From positions 18,427 through 82,426 of the forward strand of contig JBGPPK010000018.1 in assembly GCA_041488515.1 (NCBI GenBank): a DNA stretch of 64,000 bases. Direction: 5' to 3'. The notes beneath the pieces were generated by a model that saw only the letters and a program-made list of their open reading frames with translations, ran no database searches and was not told the origin of the DNA. Origin of the DNA: Terriglobia bacterium. GTDB lineage: Bacteria > Acidobacteriota > Terriglobia > Terriglobales > Acidobacteriaceae. The translations under genes were made by a program, and so were the position numbers. Each line of letters starts with the position of its first letter. Position 1 is the stretch's first letter. Of this stretch, positions 19,953 to 33,033 are shown in pieces.

Positions 19953-19956
<4 letters not shown>

Positions 19957-20876
19957 GAGTGCACTTGATTCTGATTGTCTGTCTGATGGCCGGCATTGGT
20001 GTGGCCCAAGCACAGGACACCAAGATCATGCCGAGCGTGACAACCGTGCCTATTGAGGAAGGTGCCGTTACGCTGCTGCACCTGAGCCCTGGCTATACGA
20101 CTTCGGTGAAACTGTCAGAGGAGATCAGTTCTGTAGTCATCGGCAATCCGGCAAGCTTCAAGGCCGAGCACTCAGATGCCGAGCCACGGCTGGTTTTCTT
20201 GAAGCCCATCACGACAGAGCCGAGCGAAAGCAATGCCTTGATAACGACCAAATCGGGCCAGGAAATTCCGCTGCATCTGGTGAGTGCGGGCAAGACATCG
20301 GCGAGTGCGCAAGTGGATTTCTTCGTGGAATATCGCCGCCCCCAGGGCCTGCTCATCCATTCCGACCGCCAGAGCTTTCTGATTGCGGAGACGCGCCCGA
20401 TTGCGCAGGCCGCACCAATCAGAGCTCCAACCCTTCCAGAGAAGCCAGATTTGGTCGCCCAGGAACTTGCGAGACAGAAGAGCCTGCCTTCGCCGGCCTG
20501 GGAAGGCAAGGAACTACTGGCAGCCGTGGGAGCATCCATCAAACAAGATCACCAGACAATCCTTGGCTTTTCAATTCTGAACAGTTCAAACCACACAATT
20601 GAACTGTTACCGCCGCAGATTGAGCTGAGTGGTTCTGGACACGGGAACAAAAGCAAGCGAATCAAAGCTGAGCCGGTACTAATCTCCGAATACCGCATGA
20701 CCACCCGACGCCTGACGCCCGGAGAACGGGCTGATGGAGTGGTGGTCTTCGAGCGACCGGCATTCAAGGAATCAAGCGAAAAACTGCAATTGCAACTGAC
20801 GCAGGCGGAGCAGGTAGATCGCCCTATTCTCTTGCCGGTGCCGTTTACCGCCAGCAGTCAAGGAGAAGCACAATGA
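19953..20876 (+). CDS. VirB9/TrbG-like (TraN-like) outer-membrane channel component, paralogue 1
   Basis: Signal peptide. N-terminal sandwich pattern (..VTLLHLSPGYTTSVKLSEEISSVVIGNPASFKAEH....LVFLKP..). The C-terminal domain resembles the second paralogue at 36091. Overlapping start and stop codons on both sides. Confidence 0.55.
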
Positions 20877-22195
20877 ATCGAAACGAAGAGAACGGATTCC
20901 GTGGAACCCAGGTTGTAGAAGAGCCATCCGTACAGGTCATCGGCGGTCCTCCGCCGAGCGAAAGCGGTAACTCGCCCTATGTACCTCAAAAAGACAAGGC
21001 AAAGCCGTCATTGAAAAACAACAGCCGGTTGCTGGTTATTGGCGCGGGCATTGTGCTGGTGCTCCTACTACTGGCATTCAATGGCATTTCCCGGCGGTCC
21101 TCGCCGGCAACCAAACCCTCAACGGCAAGCGGGAAGCTGTCACAATCGGAATCCCCGAATCCTGTTCATGCGCCCGCAAGTATGACGCCGATCCTCGATA
21201 CAGGCCGATCGCCCGTCCAGGATACAGATGGCAACCTAGTCAATCCAGACCAGATCGCACGCACAGCCACCAAACAAGCAAAGCCGAGTCCCGGGACAAA
21301 CCTTGGCAGTGTGCGACCATTTGATAACACGCAACCTTGGCAGCCTGCGCCGTTCCAACCTGGATCTCAACCTGCGGACGCTGGTGGAAGCCCAGCTGTG
21401 CCTGCCGAGGCTGCTGAAACCAGGAGCGAGCACGATGCGATGGACAAGGCATCGCTGGTATTTGTGAGGAACAGTCCCTCTTCCGCATCGAACGCCAAAC
21501 CACTGGATCCTGCCGCGGCCGTTGACTGGGGCCTTGGAGTGACGCCAGGCACGAGATTGCGGGCCAGGCTCGAATCTGCCGTCAGCACTGCCGTTCGGAC
21601 TCCGGTCGTCGCAGTCATCGAATACAACTACGAACAGAACGGCGAGATCGTAGTGCCCGCAGGAGCCAAAGCCTTCGGACATCTCGAAAGCGCGGACCAT
21701 TCCGGTTATGTTGGAATCCGCTTTGACTCTCTGCTGATGCCGGATGGGTCTTCAATAGGTCTCGAAGCTGCGGCCACGGATCTTCAGCTTCGTCCCCTGC
21801 GAGGCAAGGTCGAAGGTAAGCACACTGGAAAGAACATCATCGTGCGCTCGTTCGCCGGAGTCGGTGAGATTGCTGCCACCCTGGTGGGGCGAGGCAGCCT
21901 CAATCAGCCGTTAAGCGAAGGGGATCTGCTGCGCGAGCGAGTGAGTAACAATATCGGGCAGGCATCCGACCAAACTGTGGCAAATCTGGCGCTTACGGAA
22001 CATGTTGTGGTTTCGGTGCCCGCTGACACAGAAATCTACGTGATCTTGCAAAAGCCGGTAAAGGAGAGCGTTCAGACTCCGCATGCCCAGGTGCCCCCGC
22101 AAACAGCAAGCCAGCCCAGCATCGAAGAATTGCGCCAACTGATGCAGTTACAACGCGAATTGAACCAGGGAATGCTAAAACCGACGCCTGAATGA
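20873..22195 (+). CDS. virB10: VirB10/TrbI-like protein
   Basis: Cytoplasmic N-terminus, one TM helix (LLVIGAGIVLVLLLLAF) and a Pro-rich linker. C-terminal TrbI pattern ..TRLRARLESAVST....IVVPAGAKAFGH....IRFDSLLMPDGSSI... Confidence 0.75.
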   Translation: MNRNEENGFRGTQVVEEPSVQVIGGPPPSESGNSPYVPQKDKAKPSLKNNSRLLVIGAGIVLVLLLLAFNGISRRSSPATKPSTASGKLSQSESPNPVHAPASMTPILDTGRSPVQDTDGNLVNPDQIARTATKQAKPSPGTNLGSVRPFDNTQPWQPAPFQPGSQPADAGGSPAVPAEAAETRSEHDAMDKASLVFVRNSPSSASNAKPLDPAAAVDWGLGVTPGTRLRARLESAVSTAVRTPVVAVIEYNYEQNGEIVVPAGAKAFGHLESADHSGYVGIRFDSLLMPDGSSIGLEAAATDLQLRPLRGKVEGKHTGKNIIVRSFAGVGEIAATLVGRGSLNQPLSEGDLLRERVSNNIGQASDQTVANLALTEHVVVSVPADTEIYVILQKPVKESVQTPHAQVPPQTASQPSIEELRQLMQLQRELNQGMLKPTPE

Positions 22196-22350: not shown

Positions 22351-22953
22351 TCACTGTGTCTGAAACGCGGGAATCACTTTGTCGAAGATGCCTTTAGCAA
22401 AGCCTTTATCAAGCGGAGCGTGTCCTTGCAACCATCGAAAGAACAGGGGTCCGTTAAGCGCGTCGATCAGCAGCTCCGGATCCGTGCCGCGCTTCAATTC
22501 GCCGGACGCGATTGCGTCTTCAATGATGCTGCGTTGAATGTCACGTCTTGGGTTGACGTACCTCTCTAGAAACATTTGTCGGAGTCGCTTGTCTTCATGG
22601 ATGCCGGTCAGGAGACGTGCCATGACGGAGCCTTCTTGAGAGACCAGGAACTCACTGGCACCCAGGACATAGCGGCGCAGGCGCGTCAAGGCGGAGCCAG
22701 TCTCTGAGATTGCGAGAACAGGTTTCATGTGTTCAAAGCACGCGTCGAACAGGATCTCTTCCTTCGAGTCCCACCAGCGGTATAGCGTCGCACTGCTCAC
22801 GCCGGCAGCTTGGGCTATCTCGTGCGAACCCACAGCATTGAAACCTTTGTTCTTCAGCAGCTTGTAAGCCGCCTCCAAGATATCGTGCCTAGCGTGCTCG
22901 CTTCTTGGCCGACCGCGGACCCTCCGTGAGACTCCGGTGTTGACACTCTTCAT
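22351..22953 (-). CDS. TetR/AcrR family transcriptional regulator
   Basis: N-terminal HTH ..ILEAAYKLLKNKGFNAVGSHEIAQAAGVSSATLYRWW. Confidence 0.9.
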   Translation of the reverse strand: MKSVNTGVSRRVRGRPRSEHARHDILEAAYKLLKNKGFNAVGSHEIAQAAGVSSATLYRWWDSKEEILFDACFEHMKPVLAISETGSALTRLRRYVLGASEFLVSQEGSVMARLLTGIHEDKRLRQMFLERYVNPRRDIQRSIIEDAIASGELKRGTDPELLIDALNGPLFFRWLQGHAPLDKGFAKGIFDKVIPAFQTQ

Positions 22954-22973
22954 AGATCCACCAACCGTGAGAT

Positions 22974-23045
22974 ACGAAAATAATTGTTTCGTTTTACTTT
23001 GACAAGCATCTATTACGAGTGTATAAACGAAACCGCTGGTTTCGT
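22974..23045. promoter_or_regulatory. Divergent TetR/SDR control region: promoter plus two palindromic operators
   Basis: ACGAAAataattgTTTCGT (22974-22992). TTGACA (22999-23004), 17-nt spacer, TATAAA (23022-23027). ACGAAACCgctGGTTTCGT (23027-23045) overlaps the -10/TSS. Confidence 0.6.
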
Positions 23046-23096
23046 ATTAGCCGGGCGTAAAGGTTTTGCCGGCGTTTCGTCAGTGATGGGGGGGAA

Positions 23097-23894
23097 ATGG
23101 CTAGATTGTCCACGATTGCAGAGAACGATGAGTTCAGCGGTAAGAGAATCCTGGTCACCGGGGGCACCAAGGGAGCTGGCAAGGCCATTGCCGATCGCTT
23201 TGTGCGGGGTAGCGGAACCGTCATCATAACGGCACGTTCCTCACCTGAGGAAGAGGCTTCAAGCCACTTTATTCAGGCCGACGTCTCGACCCAGCAAGGT
23301 GTTGCCAGGGTGATCCGCGAAGTCCTTGAGCGATACAAAGGCATCGACATCATTGTCCACAATGTAGGCGGATCGTCAGCGCCCGGGGGAGGATTCCTCA
23401 CCGTCACTGACGACCTGTGGCAACAAGCAATCGACGAGAACCTGTTTCCCGCTGTTCGACTTGATCGCGGTTTTCTGCCTTCCATGATCGCACGCGGGTC
23501 GGGCGTCATTATTCACATCTCGTCGATTCAAAGAAGGTTGCCGCTCTATGATTCGACGCTCGCGTACGCCGCAGCGAAAGCTGCCCTGACCAATTACAGC
23601 AAGGCACTGTCGAACGAAGTTAGCCCAAAAGGGGTTCGGGTGGTCACGGTTTCCCCTGGCTTCATCGAGACCGACGCCGCAACGAGAATGATCAACCGCA
23701 TGGCTGAAAAGGATAGGAGTGACTACACGACTGCACGACAGAAGTTGATGGACATGCTGGGCGGGATCCCACTGGGGCGACCGAACAGGCCATCAGAAAT
23801 CGGAGAACTAGTCGCGTTTCTCGCCTCCGATAGGGCTTCGGCAATCACTGGAAGCGAATTTGTCATTGATGGCGGAACGATTCCAACGATTTAA
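23097..23894 (+). CDS. SDR family oxidoreductase
   Basis: VTGGTKGAGKAI (TGxxxGxG), NVGG and the YAAAKAAL catalytic YxxxK. Confidence 0.9.
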   Translation: MARLSTIAENDEFSGKRILVTGGTKGAGKAIADRFVRGSGTVIITARSSPEEEASSHFIQADVSTQQGVARVIREVLERYKGIDIIVHNVGGSSAPGGGFLTVTDDLWQQAIDENLFPAVRLDRGFLPSMIARGSGVIIHISSIQRRLPLYDSTLAYAAAKAALTNYSKALSNEVSPKGVRVVTVSPGFIETDAATRMINRMAEKDRSDYTTARQKLMDMLGGIPLGRPNRPSEIGELVAFLASDRASAITGSEFVIDGGTIPTI

Positions 23895-24024
23895 GTGCGA
23901 AGTAGGATTGCTAAATTCATTTCTTGGGCGTGGCAGAACTGTCTCAGGAGTGATGATTTCGGAGAGCGAAAGTCACACGCGCCATTGCGAAGGGTGCGGC
24001 GCACAAAACGATCAGGAGGACTCG

Positions 24025-24318
24025 ATGGCGAAGCATGGATATTGGGTAGTGTGTTACAAGTCAGTGTCGAATCCGGCCGCTATTTCCGAATATGCGAAGC
24101 TTGCGGCGAGCGCGCTGGAAGCATTGGGAGGTCGCGTGATCGTTGCAGGCAAACCTGCTAAGGCCCACGAGGCTGGAGTAGATCAGTCGGTTGTCGTGGT
24201 CGAGTTCGAGAACCTAGAAAAGGCGATTGCCGCATATGAAAGTGACCTGTACAGGCCAGCGCTCAACGTATTCGACAACGCCGCGCAAAGGGATTTTCGT
24301 ATTGTCGAAGGGCGATGA
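24025..24318 (+). CDS. DUF1330 domain protein
   Basis: MAKHGYWVVCYKSVSNP...VVVVEFENLEKAIAAYESDLYRPAL...DFRIVEG. AGGAGGA Shine-Dalgarno sequence 5 nt upstream. Confidence 0.8.
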   Translation: MAKHGYWVVCYKSVSNPAAISEYAKLAASALEALGGRVIVAGKPAKAHEAGVDQSVVVVEFENLEKAIAAYESDLYRPALNVFDNAAQRDFRIVEGR

Positions 24319-24786: not shown

Positions 24787-25158
24787 ATGCAGTTTTTGCG
24801 ATCCAAGAAATCCTCAACGCGAATTGCGGCGTTATTTCTGTTTTTCATAGTTCTCCTTCAATTATCCCCAGTGCTCCTGCAGGCCCAGAACCTTGGCGGC
24901 GCACCCGCAACCAACAAGGCAGTGCAGGGACAGACAGCGGCCCAGCCCGAGGGCGCATTTCTCAACCTGGTGAACTGGATCGGCAACGTCATTGCGCCAG
25001 TGGGAGCGGCGCTGTGCGTCGTCATGGCAATCATTAACTACACACATGGCCGCGGCGTGGCACGTTGGGCAATCGCAGCTGGTGGTCTGTTGATGATCTC
25101 GGGCCTTACGCGCCTGATTGAATTCTGGATCAGCCAGGGCTCGGCAGGGGTTCAGTAG
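24787..25158 (+). CDS. VirB2/TrbC-like pilin candidate (one 2-TM hairpin module)
   Basis: Long signal-like leader (..IAALFLFFIVLLQLSPVLLQAQ), then LNLVNWIGNVIAPVGAALCVVMAI...GGLLMISGLTRLIEFWISQG. The start is taken at MQFLRSKK. Confidence 0.6.
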   Translation: MQFLRSKKSSTRIAALFLFFIVLLQLSPVLLQAQNLGGAPATNKAVQGQTAAQPEGAFLNLVNWIGNVIAPVGAALCVVMAIINYTHGRGVARWAIAAGGLLMISGLTRLIEFWISQGSAGVQ

Positions 25159-25191
25159 CGGTTGAGACAGCCGGTTCATGAGGAACAGGAC

Positions 25192-25854
25192 ATGACGATC
25201 CCCCAGCTACTGAACGATCTGCTGCAACTGCTGTTTGACATGGCGGTGCCCGCAGCGATGTGCACGATGGTGCTGGCCGGGCTTGCCTTGCGGCAGGAGA
25301 GCGGCGTCAATTTTGAGATCGGAGGCCGGTTTCAAAGATGGATGCTTTGGTCGGTCATTCTGCTGACGCTTCCACAGTTTCTGTCGTGGTTTGCTGCGCA
25401 GGGCATTACGTTGCCACCGCAGGGCGCCGGAATCAGCGGCCCTTGGTTGCGCAGCATGGAGACTAGCTTTACCAGTTTCATCTCCGATGTGGTCTTGGCC
25501 AAGCTGGTTCCGGTTCTGGCGGCTTTCTTTGTTTTGAAAGCGGCGCTTGATGCCGCCCAGGGCTGGAGTCCCTTGGGCTCGATCGTTGCAGCGATCTTCC
25601 TGTTGTCCATTTCCGGCAGCGTGAGGCTCATGCAGGGCTTCAACAGCGGCGGGGAGTTTGCGACCACCGACATGCTGGTTTCGCTCTGGAACTACCTCGC
25701 GGGAACGATTCTGCCAGAAGCCGCGGGTCTGGCAGTGGTGGGTGCGGTCATTAATTATTCGCGCAAAAAGCCGTTCATGCCGCTGGTGTTTTCAGCATTA
25801 GCGTTCTTGAGCGTCACGGCGTTGTGGAAGCTTGTCCAGGCAATGGTCGGGTGA
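25192..25854 (+). CDS. Membrane protein made of three tandem pilin-like hairpin modules
   Basis: Six predicted TM helices in three ~70-aa units. The third unit (LVSLWNYLAGTILPEAAGLAVVGAVINYS...WKLVQAMVG) aligns with the 24787 product. The ATG at 25192 is preceded by AGGAACAGGA. Confidence 0.65.
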   Translation: MTIPQLLNDLLQLLFDMAVPAAMCTMVLAGLALRQESGVNFEIGGRFQRWMLWSVILLTLPQFLSWFAAQGITLPPQGAGISGPWLRSMETSFTSFISDVVLAKLVPVLAAFFVLKAALDAAQGWSPLGSIVAAIFLLSISGSVRLMQGFNSGGEFATTDMLVSLWNYLAGTILPEAAGLAVVGAVINYSRKKPFMPLVFSALAFLSVTALWKLVQAMVG

Positions 25855-25873
25855 GCGGAATGGGAGGTGATCC

Positions 25874-26326
25874 ATGTTTGAAAACGGACTGCTGAACCTG
25901 ACCAACTGGGCAGGCAATGTGATCATGCCGACGCTGGCAGGGCTGTTTTTCGCAGCGGCAATCTACCAGTTCAGCAAAGCCCATCCTTATTCCCATTTGT
26001 CGTGGGCGGGCTTCGCCGCGCTGATGTGCTCGGGGCTGTTGAGGGCTCTCGAAGCGTTTGCCCAACAAGCGGGTCCGAACGATCCCGATCGGTACTGGAT
26101 ATCGATTCTCACGCTGGTGAATTGGGTTGGGAACGTGATGCTGCCGCTGTACGGGGTCATTCAGGTCGTGATGATGGTCTTGCATTCGGCCGGAGTGCTC
26201 GAACGCATGACCATCGGCGATGCCTGGGTGAGGAACCTGGTGGCGGCCATGATGTGCTTCGGCCTTTCAGGGCTGTTGCGGCTGGCCGAGTTTTGGATTC
26301 AGAACGGGACGACGGGAGTGAGGTAG
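25874..26326 (+). CDS. Membrane protein made of two tandem pilin-like hairpin modules
   Basis: LLNLTNWAGNVIMPTLAG...GLLRALEAFAQQAG followed by ILTLVNWVGNVMLPLYG...GLLRLAEFWIQNG. Confidence 0.7.
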   Translation: MFENGLLNLTNWAGNVIMPTLAGLFFAAAIYQFSKAHPYSHLSWAGFAALMCSGLLRALEAFAQQAGPNDPDRYWISILTLVNWVGNVMLPLYGVIQVVMMVLHSAGVLERMTIGDAWVRNLVAAMMCFGLSGLLRLAEFWIQNGTTGVR

Positions 26327-26328
26327 CT

Positions 26329-26652
26329 ATGGCTTTGGATGTGACACCGGTCAATCGCAACCTGCATCAGCGGGTGACGTTCATGTCGCTTGAGTTTGAG
26401 GACCTATTCGTTGTCCTGGGCCTGGCAGCCGTGATGAATGTCGTCAGCCGCTTCGTAAGCGGGCAGATGGGCGCCTACCTGCAGTACGGAGTGCCGCTCT
26501 CCGTCATACCGTTGCTGATGGTCTTCAAATACGGGAAACCGCGCGGCTACCTGCGTGACCTGTTTCATTGGTACACGAAACCGCGCACCTATTGCGCCGT
26601 ATCAGGCGACCGCCAGATTCGAACGCGCTATATCGCCAAGGAGGAGCAGTAA
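26329..26652 (+). CDS. VirB3/TrbD-like small membrane protein
   Basis: 107 aa with one or two TM helices. Sits directly upstream of and abutting virB4, with the start 3 nt after the preceding stop. Assignment rests on position and size. Confidence 0.5.
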   Translation: MALDVTPVNRNLHQRVTFMSLEFEDLFVVLGLAAVMNVVSRFVSGQMGAYLQYGVPLSVIPLLMVFKYGKPRGYLRDLFHWYTKPRTYCAVSGDRQIRTRYIAKEEQ

Positions 26653-29286
26653 ATGCCAGTGACTTGGGAACAACACGAAAAGTCGCTCGACGATCCGGCG
26701 CTCTGCGAGCAGCTTCCGATACGCGATTACTTGGACAACGTGATGGTGCGCACCAACGGGGCTCTCGTGGCCGCCTATGAGGTCCGGGGGATCATTTCTT
26801 ATTTCGCCAGCGACGAGGAGCGCGACCGGAGCAAGGTCATGCTGGGCGCGCTGCTCAAGTCGATTCCCGAGCAGAGCATGAGGGTGCAGGTGCGTTATGA
26901 GGTGGTCGAAGACCTTGGCAACCTGCTTGAGTTTTACACAGCGCAGGACCGTTCTGGTAGCGATGTTGGCCGCGCTCTTGATGCTGCGAGGCTTGAGGCT
27001 TGGCGAGTGAAGTCCGACGCCGGACACTACTTGCGACCCCTGCTGCACGTCTACCTCATCTGGGATCCACAGATTCATCATCGAGTTACCGGCAAAGCCA
27101 CCCGGCGTGCCCTGAATTTCAGCCTCTCGGCCAAAGCTTCGATAGGGCGCAGCCGGAGGGAACACGAAGAGCTGTTGGCAGAGTTTGAAAGCCTGCTGGT
27201 CGGCATTGAGGCCACGATGCAGGCCGCGGAACTGGGACCACGCCGGCTTACCGACCAGGAGATGTTTCTTGAGGCCAAGAGGGCTCTGAATCCCCTGGAG
27301 CCGGACACCCGAGGCTACACACCGGGCGAAGACCATCTCGAATATCGCAGCGCGCGCCAGCAACTGGCGAACGTCAGCATTGTGGATGAGACGGATTCGT
27401 ACCTGAATCTGGGCGGTCTGCTCTATTCCTTTGTCAGCCTCAAAGAACTGCCCGATGCTACCTTCCCGGGGATTCTGCGCGAGTTGGTAGCGCTTGATTT
27501 CCCGATCGTTGTGAGCGCCCAGCTAACCATTCCCGACCAAACCAAAGTTCTAAAGGGCTACAAGAGCCGCCTCCGGAAGATGCAGGCGGCGCAGCGGGAC
27601 ACCCATGGCGGATTTCGCGTGAACGTCGAGGCACAGGTTGCAGAATCACAGTTGTTCAAGGTGCAACAGGAGATCATCGCCAGCTCGATCAAGACGGCGA
27701 AGCTCAGCCTGGTCATCGCCACACGGACGTCAAAGGCAGCCATCACGCGCCAGGAATTTGAAGAAGCCGAGCGGCTCATCAACAACCGCCGCCAGCAGCT
27801 TCTCTATGCCGTGGCCCGAATGAACGGCGCCAAAGCAATCACAGAGACCCTGGCCAAGAGACGACTCTTCTTCAGCTCGCTGCCTGGCATGGCCGACGTC
27901 GACAAGCGCGAGCAAGACATGCTGACGACCAACGCGGCCGATCTTCTACCGGTCGAGGCTCCATGGCAAGGAACGCCGCGGTCGCCCTTGTTCCTGTTTG
28001 AAACCCCGTACCGGCAGCTCATTCCGTTCTCGCCGTTTGATGCGTCGTTCAGCGACGCCAACGTACTCATCATGGCCAAGAGCGGCGGCGGCAAGACCTT
28101 CATGGTGCAGCAATTGTTGTCGATGGCCTCGCGCGCCAATCCTTTGGTTTCGATCATTGAGCGCGGAGATTCCTACAAGCCCCTGGTCGAGCTGATGGGC
28201 GGCCGGATGATCGCCATGTCCCTAGACGCGGACCAGACGATTAATCCCTGGGATTTGCCTCAAGCGGAGAAGCAGCCTGCCAAGGATCAAGTGGCCTTCT
28301 TGAAGAACTTGACCCGGCACATGCTGGGCGAGAACCCAGCGGAAGACACCGAGTTGCTGGACAACCTGATTACTGAGGCAATCCTGCGGACATACAAGCG
28401 GGCTGCGATACGACCGTCGAACCCCATCCCAACTTTTTCTGACCTTCGCGACGAGCTGTCGCAATGGCGAGACGAGGAGAAAAACCAGAGGGTGATGGAC
28501 GAGGCCCACTTGGCCGCGATCAAATTGCGCAGCTGGACCGGAGAGAAAGGGATTTACTCCAGGCTCTTTGACCACGCGACGACGATTTCACTCGACAACC
28601 CTTGGCTGTTCTTCAACGTTGAGCAGTTAGCGGACGATCCGCGGCTTGAAACAGCAATGAGCCTGCTGATCGCCCATGCCACCTCGCAGCGGGCTTCCGG
28701 CAAGACAGGCCAGCCGAGCATCACCGTGCTCGATGAGTGCTGGTTCCTGCTCGATTCGCCTGTTCTAGCGCCTGAGGTCGTGCAGTTATTCCGGACGGCG
28801 CGCAAACGCAACGCCAGTGTGTGGGGAATCAGCCAGACGGCAGAGGACTTTGTCGGATCAGAGTCCAAACCGAAAGTCCATGGCGCCGGGATCGTCAAAA
28901 ATTCCAGTACCAAGATCGTGGGCCAGCAGCCCGGGGACATGACGGCCCTGCGCGAGCACCTTCACCTCAATGCGACTGCGCTCCACCAGGTCAAGCACTT
29001 CAGCGCCCCACGCAAGGGACGCAGGGCCGATGCGCTGATCGTGATCGGGGAGAAGGCGGACACCACGCACACCATTCGCATGGTTCCAACGCCAGTCGAT
29101 TACTGGATTACCACGACCTATGCCCGCGAAAGGCTATACCGAGCATGGTGGATTGCGCAGCACAAAGATATTCCGCACATGGAGGCTTACCGGGAACTTG
29201 CCAGAAGATTCCCATTTGGCCTTGCGGATGTTGAGTCGCTTCCCGAGGAGCAGTCCATGGAAGTGGCAAAGGGAGCACACAAATGA
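26653..29286 (+). CDS. virB4: VirB4/TrbE-type conjugal transfer ATPase
   Basis: 877 aa. Walker A IMAKSGGGKTF, Walker B ITVLDECWFLLD, and the C-terminal ..VWGISQ.. motif. Confidence 0.92.
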   Translation: MPVTWEQHEKSLDDPALCEQLPIRDYLDNVMVRTNGALVAAYEVRGIISYFASDEERDRSKVMLGALLKSIPEQSMRVQVRYEVVEDLGNLLEFYTAQDRSGSDVGRALDAARLEAWRVKSDAGHYLRPLLHVYLIWDPQIHHRVTGKATRRALNFSLSAKASIGRSRREHEELLAEFESLLVGIEATMQAAELGPRRLTDQEMFLEAKRALNPLEPDTRGYTPGEDHLEYRSARQQLANVSIVDETDSYLNLGGLLYSFVSLKELPDATFPGILRELVALDFPIVVSAQLTIPDQTKVLKGYKSRLRKMQAAQRDTHGGFRVNVEAQVAESQLFKVQQEIIASSIKTAKLSLVIATRTSKAAITRQEFEEAERLINNRRQQLLYAVARMNGAKAITETLAKRRLFFSSLPGMADVDKREQDMLTTNAADLLPVEAPWQGTPRSPLFLFETPYRQLIPFSPFDASFSDANVLIMAKSGGGKTFMVQQLLSMASRANPLVSIIERGDSYKPLVELMGGRMIAMSLDADQTINPWDLPQAEKQPAKDQVAFLKNLTRHMLGENPAEDTELLDNLITEAILRTYKRAAIRPSNPIPTFSDLRDELSQWRDEEKNQRVMDEAHLAAIKLRSWTGEKGIYSRLFDHATTISLDNPWLFFNVEQLADDPRLETAMSLLIAHATSQRASGKTGQPSITVLDECWFLLDSPVLAPEVVQLFRTARKRNASVWGISQTAEDFVGSESKPKVHGAGIVKNSSTKIVGQQPGDMTALREHLHLNATALHQVKHFSAPRKGRRADALIVIGEKADTTHTIRMVPTPVDYWITTTYARERLYRAWWIAQHKDIPHMEAYRELARRFPFGLADVESLPEEQSMEVAKGAHK

Positions 29287-30053
29287 CGAATCGATTCTTC
29301 AAAAAGACGACACTGGCGCTCGGCGCAATTTTCCTGCTGACCTTGATGCCCGTGGCCGCCAACGCCGGCGTCGCCGATATCATCTCGCTGTTGACCACGA
29401 TCACCAGCACCTTGCAGAACGGCGTTGGTCAGGTTCTGAGCGAGATTCAGTCGATCAATACCACCGTCAGAAACTTCGAGCAGCAAGTGGTGTGGCCGGT
29501 CACGCTTATCAACCAGACCCGGGCTGAGGTATCGCAGATGCGCGCGCTATTCTCGAGCTTGGCCAGTCAGATCCAGAGCATTCCTACCAACAGCGCGACT
29601 CTGGTCAATCCTTCCCAGCTTGAACAACTTCTCAGAAGCCAGCGGGCCGGGAGCCTCAATCAGATCAACGCATCGTATACGCAGGTCTATCAAGCGCTGC
29701 CCCCGGCGAATCAGGCTACGGTAATGCAGAGAAATCTGATCGACGTGGACGATGCGTTTGCTCTCGGGGCGCTCAAGACAGCAACGGTGTCCGATCAGGC
29801 CAGCCAACAGATGTTGACGGTGGCCGATGGGCTTGAGCAGCAGGCAGCACAGTCTGCGCCTGGCAGCGCGTCCATTCTGACGGCTCAAGCCCAGGCCGCC
29901 AATCTTCAGAACCAGGCAATGCTCCAAAAGCTGCTGGCCGCGGAGCTACGCCAGGAAGCCGCCCGTCTCGCACACGCCAATGCCTTGCGGAAACAAAGCG
30001 CGGATGCCAACAGAGATCTCCGCAACAACATGCAGCAAATCTTGAGCAGGTGA
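29283..30053 (+). CDS. TrbJ/VirB5-like secreted coiled-coil protein, paralogue 1
   Basis: Signal peptide and Gln-rich helical repeats. Position between virB4 and virB6. ATGA overlap with virB4. Confidence 0.55.
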   Translation: MTNRFFKKTTLALGAIFLLTLMPVAANAGVADIISLLTTITSTLQNGVGQVLSEIQSINTTVRNFEQQVVWPVTLINQTRAEVSQMRALFSSLASQIQSIPTNSATLVNPSQLEQLLRSQRAGSLNQINASYTQVYQALPPANQATVMQRNLIDVDDAFALGALKTATVSDQASQQMLTVADGLEQQAAQSAPGSASILTAQAQAANLQNQAMLQKLLAAELRQEAARLAHANALRKQSADANRDLRNNMQQILSR

Positions 30054-30063
30054 GGTAACGCAA

Positions 30064-30894
30064 ATGAACTGGACATCTTTCAATCAATCCGCAAAACGGG
30101 CCTGGACAGTTATGACGTGGAAGCTCATCTTGGTTGCTGCTCTCGTGTTTGTGCTTGTGCTGGGGCAGATGGGTGCGAGGGCGCAACTTGGCCTTGATCC
30201 CTGCTGCGCCATCATCTCGGCAGGCCTGAATACCATTTCTGGTTTGCTCAAGAACGTTGTCGCCAAACCGCTGGGCCAGATCCAGCAAATCCAGCAGCAG
30301 GCGGCAAACTTTCAGCAGCAGGTGATCTACCCCACCAGCGCGATAAACAGCGCGCGTGGACTCGCAGGACAGATGCAAGGCCAGTTGCGGCAGATGACTC
30401 AAGTGTTCCGGCTGCCGACCGCAAGCGCAACTTTGCCTACGCCGCAGCAGCTGGAACAGGCGCTACTATCACGCAATCCGCAGGCTGTAGGCCAAGTCAG
30501 CCAGGGTTATGCGAAAGTTTATGGCACAGTAGTGGCTCCCGCGGATGCACCGCAGCCGATCCGCGACCTCGTAGACATGACCGACGCCGAAGCCCAGGCG
30601 GCACTGAAGAAAGCTCTGGAACTCGATGCCCTGGCGGATGTCGAACTGGCTGCGGCCGATCAGATCAACCAACAAATCCAGACTGCGGCGCCTGGGAGCG
30701 CCCCAATTCTCGAAGCGCAAGCATCGGCATGGCTCGTGCGAGCCAACGCTTATACGCAGTCAGCTATGGCCGAATTGATTAGGGTCCGTTCGATCGACCT
30801 TGCCAATTCAGGAGCACAACTGAAGTTCAGCGCCACGGACGTCAACAACCTGCGCAATAACACCGGTCAAGTCTTGGGACGGGGAGCGCAGTAG
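30064..30894 (+). CDS. TrbJ/VirB5-like secreted coiled-coil protein, paralogue 2
   Basis: Shares blocks with the upstream gene: NFQQQVIYPT/NFEQQVVWPV, PQQLEQALL/PSQLEQLL, AAPGSAPILEAQASA/SAPGSASILTAQAQA, LRNNTGQVL/LRNNMQQIL. Confidence 0.55.
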   Translation: MNWTSFNQSAKRAWTVMTWKLILVAALVFVLVLGQMGARAQLGLDPCCAIISAGLNTISGLLKNVVAKPLGQIQQIQQQAANFQQQVIYPTSAINSARGLAGQMQGQLRQMTQVFRLPTASATLPTPQQLEQALLSRNPQAVGQVSQGYAKVYGTVVAPADAPQPIRDLVDMTDAEAQAALKKALELDALADVELAAADQINQQIQTAAPGSAPILEAQASAWLVRANAYTQSAMAELIRVRSIDLANSGAQLKFSATDVNNLRNNTGQVLGRGAQ

Positions 30895-30896
30895 TC

Positions 30897-32135
30897 ATGT
30901 TTTATTTCCAACAACTTCTTCAGCAAGGGCTGAACGGGATCGATCGGACCGCGATGATACCGACTGTGGTCGGTATCGCTTACGCTATTCTGCTGGTCGG
31001 GTTTCTTATCGGACTCTATCAAGCCGCCATGAGAGGCGGCGATGTGCAGTCGCTTGCCATCACCGGGATCAAGTATCTGGTGATCGCCATCATCCTCGCC
31101 AACTGGTCCACCACCTTCCGCGAGGTCAATGACTCATTCAACCAAGTGGCGCAATTCATCGATAACAGTTCTGGGGCTGGGGACATGTTCCTCAGCTGGT
31201 TCGACCAATTGAAGCAGCAGTTCAGCACCAATGGGATCACCGCTATCCTTCCGGCGATAAACGCGACCTTCGCAGCGACCACCACGGCCTTGATGCTCCT
31301 CCTTGCGTACACCGTCTATGCCATGATGGTCGTCGTCTTTGCCTTCTTCTACACCCTCTACGGCTGCGTACTATACGTGCTGGGGCCGCTGGTCTTGGCA
31401 CTGTTACCCATGGCCGGCGTCGGACAACTTGCAAAGAGCTATGCCACGAACCTGATGATCTGGAATGCCTGGGGCATTCTCTACGCCATTTTCGGGTCGC
31501 TCATTACCGCGATCCAGTTCAACCGCGTCGATACCGTGATGAGCCAGGGATTTTTGCGAGGCTTTTTCCTGGGAAGCTCAGAATCGACGATTCTTGGATT
31601 GGTCAGTGTCTTTTACGCACTGGCTCTAGGTTTAATTCCGTTCATCGCGAAGAAACTGATTTCCGGCGATGTTGGATCGACAGCGTATTCGATGGTGCGC
31701 GCCGGGGCAGTCGCGGCCGGTGCGCTCGTGTCCGGCGTAAGCGGCTTTGCCGCGGGTGCTGGCGCATCATCTGCGGTCAGCCCTTCTGTGGCGACCGGAG
31801 CGGGCGCTGCGGCAACCGGCACGGCAAGCCCAGCGGCTACCGCCTCATCTTCGGCGCCTCCACCGCAGCCCAGTCTGGCGCAAACGATTCGCAACGGGAT
31901 TATGAGCGCGGTAACCGGAGGCGCTCCACCCGCTCCCGCCTCAAACGGGGGAGGAAGCACCAGTCCGCAAGCTGCCGCGGCCAGTTCCAGCGCCTCGGCT
32001 GGTTCAGCTTCACCCAAGCGTTCGTCTTCGACATTCCGGCCAATTGGCGTTACGCAAACGGTTGCGTTTCATGCCGGAAAATTCGCCGGGAGCATCGTCG
32101 GCGGAAACGGGAGCAGGGACAACGAGAATGCTTAA
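30897..32135 (+). CDS. VirB6/TrbL-like polytopic membrane protein with Ala/Ser/Gly-rich tail
   Basis: About 6 TM helices and a low-complexity C-terminus (..AGAGASSAVSPSVATGAGAAATG..). Position after the TrbJ-like genes. Confidence 0.65.
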   Translation: MFYFQQLLQQGLNGIDRTAMIPTVVGIAYAILLVGFLIGLYQAAMRGGDVQSLAITGIKYLVIAIILANWSTTFREVNDSFNQVAQFIDNSSGAGDMFLSWFDQLKQQFSTNGITAILPAINATFAATTTALMLLLAYTVYAMMVVVFAFFYTLYGCVLYVLGPLVLALLPMAGVGQLAKSYATNLMIWNAWGILYAIFGSLITAIQFNRVDTVMSQGFLRGFFLGSSESTILGLVSVFYALALGLIPFIAKKLISGDVGSTAYSMVRAGAVAAGALVSGVSGFAAGAGASSAVSPSVATGAGAAATGTASPAATASSSAPPPQPSLAQTIRNGIMSAVTGGAPPAPASNGGGSTSPQAAAASSSASAGSASPKRSSSTFRPIGVTQTVAFHAGKFAGSIVGGNGSRDNENA

Positions 32136-32156
32136 GCGCGAAGGAGGCCAAAAACA

Positions 32157-32315
32157 ATGCTGCCATGGTATCGAGGGCCAATTTATGAGCCGAAGGACAG
32201 CCGTTTCCGTCCCTGGAGCCTTACGACGCTGATCGCATTTTATGTCGGCAGATTTTTCGGCCGTCTGTTTCGAAGCAGGAGAAAAGGTCATGTGGTTAAA
32301 GAAGACAGATCCTAA
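32157..32315 (+). CDS. Unlisted 52-codon ORF with strong Shine-Dalgarno sequence (small membrane protein?)
   Basis: AAGGAGG lies 9 nt upstream of the ATG at 32157. Product MLPWYRGPIYEPKDSRFRPWSLTTLIAFYVGRFFGRLFRSRRKGHVVKEDRS*. Overlaps the virB8-like start by 26 nt. Confidence 0.35.
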   Translation: MLPWYRGPIYEPKDSRFRPWSLTTLIAFYVGRFFGRLFRSRRKGHVVKEDRS

Positions 32316-33033
32316 AGAGAAGGCACAAGCACCCGAGAAGCTCCGCTACAGCCGTTATTACGAGCATGACGGTGCCCTGCGCGCTTATGCAAACCGAGCA
32401 ATGCTCCTAGCGTTTATCTGCGTGCCGACCGCGCTCCTGGCGGTTGCAATGGCGGCCTATGTCCGCTTGCAGCCGCCAACGGTGATTCGTGTGGATGCAT
32501 CTGGCACAGCAGTTGCAGTGGACAGCAAGCCGGCAGCAAAGTCGCCGCTGGTCGTCTCCCAAGGCACCAGCGCCGAGCCGAGCGACTTTGAGAAAACCGC
32601 CTTCGTCCGGCTCTTCCTGCAGCGTTATCTGAACTTCTCGCCGGATAGTGTTAACCGCAATTGGGCCGACGGTCTGAACATGATGACTTCCAACCTTCGG
32701 CGAGCCACTCTCAGCGCGATCGAAAAGGACAACGTAGTTGGAAAGATTCAGGACGATCAGATCACTTCTGTCTTTCACGTGCGCTCGTTGGATCCGGCAA
32801 AGGATGATCCTCTCAGTTTTACAGTCTTCGGAGTGAAGGAGGTCCACCACGTCCGCGACCATCAGGAGACGAGCGACAAACTGGTAGGCGAATTTCATGT
32901 TCGGCTGATTACGGAGCGGCGCTCGGAAGCCAATCCAAGCGGTCTGCTGATTGCGGAGTACGGAGAGCGGTTGATCGAAGGAGAACGCCGGGATGCGATT
33001 GCCCAAGATACTTCCTTCGACAAAACAAATTGA
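32290..33033 (+). CDS. VirB8/TrbF-like protein
   Basis: Short cytoplasmic N-terminus and one TM helix (LLAFICVPTALLAVAMAAYV). NTF2-like periplasmic domain ending ..ANPSGLLIAEY (cf. NPlGxxV.xY). Confidence 0.65.
   Translation: MWLKKTDPKEKAQAPEKLRYSRYYEHDGALRAYANRAMLLAFICVPTALLAVAMAAYVRLQPPTVIRVDASGTAVAVDSKPAAKSPLVVSQGTSAEPSDFEKTAFVRLFLQRYLNFSPDSVNRNWADGLNMMTSNLRRATLSAIEKDNVVGKIQDDQITSVFHVRSLDPAKDDPLSFTVFGVKEVHHVRDHQETSDKLVGEFHVRLITERRSEANPSGLLIAEYGERLIEGERRDAIAQDTSFDKTN

What the first reader, a model, noticed from the sequence alone, without database searches (positions are those of the whole stretch)
24787..26326. Six pilin-like 2-TM hairpin modules spread over three adjacent genes (1+3+2)
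Seen in sequence: the gene at 24787 has the classic VirB2/TrbC layout of a long leader followed by two TM helices. Its mature part (FLNLVNWIGNVIAPVGAALCVVMAIINYT...GLTRLIEFWISQG) recurs twice in the 25874 product: LLNLTNWAGNVIMPTLAG...LLRALEAFAQQAG and ILTLVNWVGNVMLPLYG...LLRLAEFWIQNG. It recurs three times, more diverged, in the 25192 product; the clearest copy is LVSLWNYLAGTILPEAAGLAVVGAVINYS...WKLVQAMVG. Every module ends in a hydrophobic-xx-(Q/N/M)-x-G tail. Established knowledge: T4SS pilins are single hairpins, and some are cyclised or processed. Inference: concatenated polypilins could be cleaved into monomers, could form a membrane platform, or could provide antigenic or receptor variants.
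Basis: partly seen in the sequence, partly recalled or inferred. Interest (0 to 1): 0.6.

Follow-up and report, generated by a model that had tools for sequence, protein, structure and literature searches.

The report
Concatenated pilin-like hairpins in acidobacterial T4SS
In a DNA-transfer (type IV secretion) gene cluster of a soil acidobacterium, the small two-helix pilus subunit gene is followed by two conserved genes that join three and two copies of the same unit into single membrane proteins. This arrangement is kept in hundreds of related elements and I found no paper describing it.

Summary
Gene A (24787-25158) encodes a leader plus one two-helix membrane hairpin. Gene B (25192-25854) has three hairpins and gene C (25874-26326) has two, and neither has a leader.

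Five modules (A, C1, C2, B3, B2) are clearly homologous: profile-profile probability is 95-99.7%, against reversed-profile and unrelated-membrane-protein controls at background. The sixth module, B1, is a hairpin of the same size and topology. Its homology is only moderately supported (A-B1 E 2e-6).

The order A(1)-B(3)-C(2)-VirB3-like-VirB4 recurs in about 75 of 78 usable related loci, out of 401 found and nearly all in Terriglobia. B and C are at least as conserved as A.

Best reading: A is the pilin. B and C are pilin-derived, uncleaved inner-membrane subunits that co-assemble with A. They may form a five-hairpin (3+2) base layer matching the five-fold pilus. That mechanism is inferred, not shown.

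Membership of A in Pfam TrbC/VirB2 is not met (15 bits against a cut-off of 27.9). The pilin call rests on layout, gene context and a weak in-register profile match.

Arrays of separate VirB2 genes are known; I found no paper on fused hairpins. This scan has noted fused pilins before, on other DNA (candidate-phyla bacteria and Clostridia).

The parts
24787..24885 (+). Signal peptide of gene A (residues 1-33), ending ...LLQA | QNLG
   Evidence: Hydrophobic leader. In 19 diverse homologues the leader is variable and ends at a conserved A-x-A|Q-N-L-G junction. Canonical TrbC pilins of the same phylum end their leaders the same way, A-x-A|Q.
24886..25158 (+). Mature part of A: conserved 27-aa N-terminal tail (QNLGxAPxxNxAVQGQxxxQPEG) followed by one two-helix hairpin (module A, residues 55-123); stop included
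   Evidence: The loop has K+R 2.0 and the tails about 0.3 and 0.05, giving N-out/C-out. Weak TrbC match: 15.1 bits, E 0.027-0.028. hhalign against TrbC E 5e-4, in register.
25192..25437 (+). Gene B, module B1 (residues 1-82): most diverged hairpin, longer basic loop, no leader
   Evidence: Two helices, H5-35 and H46-69. Loop K+R 2.8. hhalign A-B1 probability 89%, E 2e-6, score 34, against a control maximum of 20.9. Other modules against B1 are at background.
25438..25653 (+). Gene B, module B2 (residues 83-154)
   Evidence: Helices H84-122 and H128-150. hhalign to A, C1, C2 and B3: probability 95.6-97%, E 1e-8 to 9e-11.
25654..25854 (+). Gene B, module B3 (residues 155-220) and stop
   Evidence: Helices H159-192 and H196-219. 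hhalign to A, C1 and C2: probability 98-98.8%. Shuffle z 9.9-11.5.
25874..26092 (+). Gene C, module C1 (residues 1-73), no leader
   Evidence: Helices H2-34 and H40-64, pLDDT about 80-88. hhalign A-C1 probability 99.5%, E 2e-22.
26093..26326 (+). Gene C, module C2 (residues 74-150) and stop. It keeps the pilin's C-terminal tail G-T-x-G-V-x.
   Evidence: Helices H72-105 and H114-144. hhalign A-C2 probability 99.7%, E 4e-25. Consensus comparison.
26329..26652 (+). VirB3-like small membrane protein (D), starting 2 nt after C and abutting VirB4
   Evidence: The position is always kept directly after C. Only a faint TraL hit. Relatives found at 401 loci.
26653..29286 (+). VirB4/TraC-type ATPase (877 aa)
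   Evidence: NCBIfam TraC-F-type E 8e-51 and VirB4_CagE E 1.5e-48. Pfam TraG P-loop E 3e-18.
19953..22195 (+). VirB9-like and VirB10/TrbI-like genes of the same element. A TetR/SDR cargo block (22351-24318) separates them from the pilin block.
   Evidence: Pfam CagX E 4e-6 and TrbI E 1.4e-10. ORF map.
29283..33033 (+). Downstream T4SS genes: two secreted coiled-coil (VirB5/TrbJ-like by position) paralogues, a polytopic VirB6-like protein (30897-32135) and a VirB8-like protein (32242-33033)
   Evidence: ORF map. VirB8 Pfam E 2e-4. The others are assigned by position and topology only, with no family hit. The VirB6-like family is not similar to the modules.

Best explanation
Shown:
- The window holds an integrative conjugative element of a Terriglobia acidobacterium with a divergent type IV secretion system.
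- Gene A encodes a leader-bearing, two-helix, pilin-type subunit.
- Genes B and C arose from that same hairpin by duplication and fusion. They are leaderless inner-membrane proteins with three and two hairpins.
- Every hairpin is oriented as a membrane-stored pilin is: termini and linkers in the periplasm, basic loop in the cytoplasm.
- The set A(1)-B(3)-C(2) sits directly before VirB3-like and VirB4. It is a fixed, strongly conserved core of this T4SS family.

Inferred:
- A is the polymerising pilin.
- B and C stay uncleaved and act as specialised structural subunits that present pilin-like surfaces at the pilus assembly site. They may nucleate or anchor the A polymer, or dock A subunits before extraction.
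- The five leaderless hairpins (3+2) equal one five-subunit layer of a five-start conjugative pilus. A B+C pseudo-pentamer at the pilus base is therefore the most specific version of this reading.
For: Homology of the modules:
- Shuffle z-scores 6-17.
- hhalign probability 95-99.7% among five modules and 89% for A-B1.
- Negative controls with reversed profiles and with other membrane proteins of the operon.

Hairpin structure.

Topology: K+R is about 2 in hairpin loops against 0-0.7 in tails and linkers.

Coding and purifying selection: third-position differences far exceed second-position differences (113 vs 23 in B, 67 vs 7 in C).

Conservation of the arrangement:
- Found in four further genera at 38-49% identity.
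- Found in essentially all of 80 loci fetched from 401. The exceptions look like frameshifts.
- The one-, two- and three-module architectures recur among 505 representatives of 1.84 billion proteins.
- B and C are as conserved as A or more so.
- Each module position has its own conserved signature.

T4SS context: VirB9, VirB10, VirB4, VirB8, coupling protein, SLT, integrase.

Pilin-like features of A:
- Leader ending A-x-A|Q, as in bona fide TrbC pilins of the same phylum.
- In-register weak profile match: E 5e-4, score 26 against 14.7 for the reversed control.

Against: - No experiment and no expression data.
- A fails the Pfam TrbC threshold: 15.1 against 27.9 bits, and only 4 of 19 relatives give even weak hits. 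The TrbC model does not find A in its own genome at E <= 0.001, while it does find a canonical TrbC elsewhere.
- PDB sequence and profile searches and Foldseek found no pilin.
- The B model has low confidence (pLDDT 56), so nothing is known about how the hairpins pack.
- Homology of B1 rests on one profile pair.
- The 3+2=5 argument is numerology until a complex is modelled or solved. Fused pilins noted elsewhere by this scan come as 3+3, 2, 4 and more.
- A pilus has never been shown for this T4SS family.
Confidence: 0.55

Rival explanations
1. Polyprotein precursors: B and C are cleaved at the inter-module linkers into five extra pilin monomers, which enter the pilus as minor or alternative subunits.
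For: Modules are pilin-sized. Each ends in a small polar residue plus Gly near the end of helix 2. C2 keeps the pilin's C-terminal tail. Pilins of the TrbC/VirB2 type are known to be proteolytically processed (established knowledge).
Against: The three junctions (AAQG-ITLPPQ.., NSGG-EFATTD.., QQAG-PNDPDRYW) share no motif and no A-x-A site. The modules have diverged to 25-40% identity from each other, while each position is 75-80% conserved between loci, so they are not interchangeable copies. No processing protease of the TraF type was seen among the genes scanned. Only part of the window was scanned.
Confidence: 0.12
2. Pilin chaperones or decoys: B and C stay in the inner membrane and bind monomeric A through pilin-like interfaces. 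They keep A from polymerising in the membrane, or hand it to VirB3/VirB4, and are never part of the filament or its base.
For: Same facts as for the best explanation: no leader, membrane topology, and position between the pilin and VirB3-VirB4. B and C lack the conserved 27-aa N-terminal tail of mature A. That is expected if they are never exposed on a filament.
Against: Nothing specific. This reading differs from the best explanation only in where the complex sits and in its stoichiometry. A chaperone does not obviously need five distinct, individually conserved hairpins.
Confidence: 0.2
3. Variant pilins for host-range or surface variation, as proposed for the multi-copy VirB2 genes of Bartonella Trw, Anaplasma and Patescibacteria.
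For: Multiple divergent pilin-like units in one T4SS locus resemble those arrays (PMC12102498, PMC12857230).
Against: B and C are among the most conserved genes of the block, at 77-80% mean identity. Their copy number and order are fixed. They lack leaders and are fused. None of this fits diversifying selection.
Confidence: 0.04
4. The resemblance is compositional: unrelated hydrophobic hairpins that only look alike.
For: Membrane helices inflate similarity scores. B1 matches four of the five other modules only at background level.
Against: z 6-17 against shuffles. hhalign scores of 43-119 against a maximum of 20.9 for reversed profiles and 10-15 for real membrane proteins of the same operon. 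Shared motifs NW.GNV..P and SG..RL.E lie in register.
Confidence: 0.02

Closest known systems
TrbC/VirB2 conjugative pilins (Pfam PF04956), for example the canonical TrbC genes found in the same phylum and on another contig of this genome
   Same: Long leader ending A-x-A|Q. About 70-90 aa mature protein with two hydrophobic helices and a short basic cytoplasmic loop. The gene block lies directly upstream of VirB3-VirB4. There is an in-register weak profile match.
   Different: Below the family threshold: 15 against 27.9 bits. Mature A carries a conserved 27-aa N-terminal tail. Two extra genes made of the same hairpin lie between the pilin and VirB3.
Arrays of separate VirB2 paralogue genes: Bartonella Trw trwL copies, Anaplasma/Ehrlichia virB2 paralogues, Patescibacteria arrays of 2-11 pilin genes including the six essential pilins of Ca. 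Southlakia epibionticum
   Same: Several sequence-divergent pilin-type hairpins encoded side by side in one T4SS locus. As it happens, there are six units here too (PMC12102498, PMC12857230).
   Different: Those are separate genes. Here five of the six units are covalently joined (3 and 2) and lack leaders, and their number and order are invariant. I did not check leaders or sequence variability of those arrays; the cited paper reports about 25% identity between paralogues within an array.
Fused multi-hairpin VirB2-like pilins noted earlier by this scan in candidate-phyla bacteria and Clostridia (AI notes, unpublished)
   Same: Pilin hairpins concatenated in one polypeptide next to T4SS genes.
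   Different: Different sequence family: those are filed under PF18895, while A-family proteins hit it only at E 0.45. Different host type (diderm Acidobacteriota). This one sits in a complete conjugative element with VirB9/VirB10, and has a 1+3+2 layout with a separate leader-bearing pilin. I did not test those notes here.
VirB6/TrbL polytopic inner-membrane platform (a pentamer in R388)
   Same: A polytopic inner-membrane component proposed to recruit pilin subunits and serve as the five-fold base of the pilus (PMC9259494). This is the role I infer for B+C.
   Different: No sequence relationship. The element has its own separate VirB6-like gene at 30897-32135.

Membership tests
TrbC/VirB2 pilin family (Pfam PF04956) | Score at or above the curated family threshold (27.9 bits) | tested here: not met
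   A scores 15.1 bits, E 0.027-0.028. Only 4 of 19 diverse A-family members give even weak hits, best E 0.028. A genome-wide search of the own genome with PF04956 finds a different gene (C7:238760-238966, 52 bits) and not A. B and C give no hit.
TrbC/VirB2 pilin family (Pfam PF04956) | Profile-profile similarity to bona fide family members | tested here: inconclusive
   hhalign of 95 A-family sequences against 29 TrbC pilins of the same phylum: probability 31.6%, E 5e-4, score 26.2. The match is in register (leader end AQ, Pro of helix 1, loop Gly). The reversed control scores 14.7. Single modules against TrbC are at background.
TrbC/VirB2 pilin family (Pfam PF04956) | Cleavable leader, then a small mature protein of two hydrophobic helices with a cytoplasmic basic loop | tested here: met
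   Met for A only. B and C have hairpins but no leader.
TrbC/VirB2 pilin family (Pfam PF04956) | Gene adjacent to and upstream of virB3-virB4 in a T4SS operon | tested here: met
   The order A-B-C-VirB3-like-VirB4 holds in the window and in about 75 related loci. A itself is separated from VirB3 by B and C.
TrbC/VirB2 pilin family (Pfam PF04956) | Polymerises with phospholipid into an extracellular pilus; terminal processing or cyclisation | not testable with these tools
   No structural match was obtained: PDB sequence and profile searches were empty, and Foldseek with the C model gave nothing below E = 1.
T4SS_pilin (Pfam PF18895; pilins of monoderm and candidate-phyla T4SS) | Significant match to the family model | tested here: not met
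   2 of 19 A-family members hit, best E 0.45. There is no hit for the window's A, B or C.
VirB2 paralogue gene arrays (Trw, Anaplasma, Patescibacteria) | Several separate pilin genes arranged side by side, sequence-variable between paralogues | tested here: not met
   Five of the six units are fused into two leaderless proteins. B and C are 77-80% conserved between loci.
VirB6/TrbL | Sequence similarity to the VirB6/TrbL family or to the element's own VirB6-like protein | tested here: not met
   No Pfam or NCBIfam hit for B or C. Module profiles against the VirB6-like family of the same operon score 12-15, which is background.

The most novel reading that the evidence does not exclude
B (three hairpins) and C (two hairpins) form one covalently constrained pseudo-pentameric pilin layer. 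This layer would be the permanent first layer or base of a five-start pilus built from A, sitting between the VirB6-like platform and the growing filament. If so, this family would be natural evidence that the unit of conjugative-pilus assembly is a five-subunit layer. It would also show that a pilin can evolve into a non-polymerising machine part.
Probability: 0.2. Interest if true: 0.8.

Novelty: new variant of a known kind. Interest (0 to 1): 0.6.

Why it matters
T4SS pilins are described as single hairpins, and how a pilus is nucleated on the inner-membrane platform is still a model. Here a large, uncharacterised T4SS family has frozen five extra pilin hairpins into two polypeptides. The family comprises hundreds of elements in soil Acidobacteriota, and all its proteins are annotated 'hypothetical'.

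Covalent linkage fixes which hairpins are neighbours. That gives a natural constraint on pilin-pilin packing and on the stoichiometry of whatever B and C build. The question can therefore be tested by modelling, cross-linking or cryo-EM.

The finding also gives conjugation in Acidobacteria a first recognisable pilin candidate; in 2012 nothing was known about conjugation in these phyla (PMC3548315).

Tried and rejected
- Pfam and NCBIfam scans of A, B and C gave only sub-threshold hits: TrbC 15 bits, otherwise noise such as 7TMR-DISM, E1-E2 ATPase and holin.
- PDB sequence and profile searches with A and the A family found nothing relevant.
- Foldseek of the confident C model against the PDB returned only generic helical bundles with E > 1, so it is uninformative for a helical hairpin. 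I did not search with the B model because its pLDDT is 56.
The VirB3-like neighbour worked instead.
- I looked for a terminator or attenuator between A and B that might set a high A:B ratio. No convincing site lies in the 33-nt gap.
- I tested whether the VirB6-like or VirB3-like proteins also contain the module. They do not.
- The resemblance of the FL..V.W.GN...P motif to the N-terminus of AbgT transporters (E 0.47) is treated as chance. It probably explains one 'AbgT' annotation of a C homologue.
- The opposite-strand ORFs over B and C (25332-25673 and 25814-26185, minus strand) are rejected as genes. Substitutions between loci follow the codon phase of the plus-strand frames.
Full report
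**What is there.** Between 24787 and 26326 the plus strand carries three closely spaced genes.
- A = 24787-25158 (123 aa).
- B = 25192-25854 (220 aa).
- C = 25874-26326 (150 aa).
- They are followed after 2 nt by a small VirB3-like membrane protein (26329-26652) and, abutting it, an 877-aa VirB4/TraC-type ATPase.
- Upstream lie a tyrosine integrase, an AAA+ ATPase, an SLT transglycosylase, VirB9-like and VirB10/TrbI-like genes, and a TetR/SDR cargo block.
- Downstream lie two secreted coiled-coil paralogues, a polytopic VirB6-like protein, a VirB8-like protein, a second VirB9-like protein, a coupling protein and a Replic_Relax protein.

This is a divergent T4SS of an integrative conjugative element. 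Homologues are named only as Terriglobia, Terriglobales or Candidatus Angelobacter hypothetical proteins.

Hydropathy gives a leader plus two helices in A, six helices in B and four in C. AlphaFold2 with family alignments gives four long helices in two hairpins for C (pLDDT 81.6). It gives six helices in three hairpins for B, at low confidence (pLDDT 56).

Pairwise Smith-Waterman scores against 1000 shuffles give z = 17 for A-C1 and A-C2, 11.5 for C1-B3, 9.9 for A-B3, 8.1 for C1-C2 and 6.4 for A-B2. B1 is not significant against anything.

I then built deep family alignments (66-94 distinct sequences per module) from three sources: genomes of the same family, 80 related loci and distant representatives. 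With these:
- hhalign links all pairs among A, C1, C2, B3 and B2 at 95-99.7% probability (scores 43-119).
- A-B1 reaches 89% probability (E 2e-6, score 34). The Pro of helix 1, the loop Gly-Arg and the following Trp are in register.
- The other four modules match B1 only at about score 16.

Two kinds of control set the background. All 36 comparisons with reversed profiles stay at or below 20.9. The module profiles against the VirB6-like and VirB3-like membrane proteins of the same operon score 10-15.

So the repeat is real. Five modules are firmly homologous, and the sixth is a hairpin of the same size and topology whose common origin is probable but not proven. The suggested common C-terminal tail motif is only loosely true.

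**Are these genes real and constrained?** Between the window and 20-63 same-length homologues, differences fall mainly on third codon positions of the plus-strand frames: B 113 against 23 at second positions, C 67 against 7. The frames are therefore coding and under purifying selection, and the overlapping minus-strand ORFs are not genes. Mean pairwise identity over 66 loci is 72% for A, 77% for B and 80% for C.

**Conservation of the architecture.**
- A search of 401 genomes of the phylum found C in 8, all in one family. A and B lie upstream and VirB3-VirB4 downstream, at 38-49% identity.
- A scan of one genome per species with the VirB3-like neighbour found 401 loci, nearly all Acidobacteriota.
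- In the 80 loci fetched, the module profile finds 1, 3 and 2 modules in three successive genes in 58 directly, and in about 17 more once gene order is read from the coordinates. The remainder are truncated contigs or frameshifted long-read assemblies.
- A profile of the six window modules searched against 1.84 billion representatives found 505 proteins (227 at E <= 1e-10). They fall into the same three architectures: leader plus one module (~120-130 aa), two modules (~150 aa) and three modules (~220 aa).
- Each module position has its own conserved signature. The units have therefore specialised; they are not a reservoir of equivalent copies.

**Topology.** Across the families, hairpin loops carry about two Lys/Arg (A 2.0; B1 2.8; B3 2.2; C1 1.4; C2 1.9). 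B2 is the exception: its basic residues lie at the end of helix 3. N-tails, inter-module linkers and C-tails carry 0-0.7 Lys/Arg and are acidic or neutral. By the positive-inside rule every hairpin is N-out/C-out. This is the orientation of a pilin stored in the inner membrane, and the linkers lie in the periplasm.

**Is A a pilin?**
- Layout and context say yes. A has a variable leader ending A-x-A|Q, like the bona fide TrbC pilins I collected from the same phylum. It has a small two-helix mature protein, and the block lies directly before VirB3-VirB4.
- Family membership is not met. PF04956 gives 15.1 bits against a cut-off of 27.9. Only 4 of 19 relatives give weak hits. The model finds a different, canonical TrbC in this genome but not A.
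- Profile-profile comparison of the A family with 29 acidobacterial TrbC pilins gives E 5e-4 (probability 32%, score 26 against 14.7 for the reversed control), in register. This is suggestive but inconclusive.
- PDB sequence and profile searches and Foldseek gave nothing.
- None of the 120 best-scoring A, B or C homologues listed for each family carries a functional name or a Pfam domain, apart from one C homologue labelled AbgT and one VirB9-B fusion carrying CagX.

**How it most likely works.** What is shown: B and C are pilin-derived, leaderless, polytopic inner-membrane proteins that are obligatory companions of the pilin gene in this T4SS family.

What is inferred: they remain uncleaved and co-assemble with A at the site of pilus assembly.
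- The junctions share no motif or peptidase site, and the modules are individually specialised. This argues against a polyprotein.
- High conservation and fixed copy number argue against antigenic variation.
- C1 and C2 retain the helix-2 motif SG..RL.E and C2 retains the pilin's C-terminal tail. B3, B2 and B1 lose these progressively. This is what one would expect of a graded adaptor between a pilin lattice and something else.
- Conjugative pili are five-start assemblies whose base is a ring of five pilin-lipid units sitting on a VirB6 pentamer (PMC9259494). B plus C supply exactly five leaderless hairpins, and termini that lie on the same (periplasmic or outer) side can be joined by the 12-24-residue linkers. 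A B+C pseudo-pentamer acting as base layer or nucleus is therefore my most specific hypothesis.
- It is numerology until a complex is modelled. Fused pilins noted elsewhere in this scan have other counts.
- A chaperone or docking role in the membrane is the main rival.

**Comparison with what is known.**
- Multiple VirB2 paralogues as separate genes are described for Bartonella Trw, Anaplasma/Ehrlichia and Patescibacteria (arrays of 2-11 genes, six essential pilins in Ca. Southlakia; PMC12102498, PMC12857230).
- I found no paper describing pilin hairpins fused in one polypeptide.
- Earlier AI notes of this scan report fused hairpins in candidate-phyla bacteria and Clostridia, on unrelated DNA and in another pilin family. 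I did not test those notes.
- The present case differs in several ways. It lies in a diderm, in a complete conjugative T4SS with VirB9/VirB10. It combines one leader-bearing pilin with 3+2 leaderless units in invariant order.
- I rate it a new variant of a known kind.

**Limits.** The B model is poor. Homology of B1 and the TrbC relationship of A are each supported by a single moderate profile match. No multimer modelling was possible with the tools.

Noticed in passing
own genome, other contig: G000:C9, about 324431-324802 (L002:1333-1704): An orphan second copy of the pilin gene A (123 aa, about 90% identical, same leader junction and tail). No B, C, VirB3 or VirB4 lies beside it. A LysR-type regulator follows on the opposite strand. 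It may be a remnant of another element or a spare pilin gene.
   Followed up: partly
own genome, other contig: G000:C7:238760-238966 (L125): A canonical TrbC/VirB2 pilin (PF04956, 52 bits) directly followed by a TrbD/VirB3-like ORF. The genome therefore also carries an ordinary Trb-type T4SS in which pilin and VirB3 are adjacent, with nothing like B or C between them.
   Followed up: partly
window 24928-25026 (A residues 48-80); also C homologue P0110: The motif FL..V.W.GN...P before helix 1 resembles the N-terminus of AbgT-family transporters (PDB 4r1i, E 0.47). One C homologue is labelled 'p-aminobenzoyl-glutamate transporter AbgT' by a source. This is probably a chance match that caused a mis-annotation.
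   Followed up: no
protein P0124 (metagenome contig of 146 kb): A 372-aa protein joins the N-terminal ~110 residues of the VirB9-like protein in frame to a complete B. This is a deletion variant of the element that has lost the VirB9 C-terminus, VirB10, any cargo and the pilin gene A.
   Followed up: partly
L011 (G344:C22), downstream of the VirB3-like gene: In this second copy of the element in one genome, the ORF after the VirB3-like gene matches only about the C-terminal third of VirB4. That copy looks decayed, although A, B and C are intact.
   Followed up: no
window 22351-24318: A TetR regulator (minus strand), a short-chain dehydrogenase and a small DUF1330-like ORF sit between VirB10 and the pilin gene. 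This cargo interrupts the transfer genes. The spacing between VirB10 and A in related loci was not compared.
   Followed up: no
loci L022, L092, L052: Near-identical copies of the block occur in bins labelled Actinomycetota, Candidatus Dormiibacterota and Blastocatellia. This is either real transfer of the element beyond Terriglobia or binning contamination.
   Followed up: no
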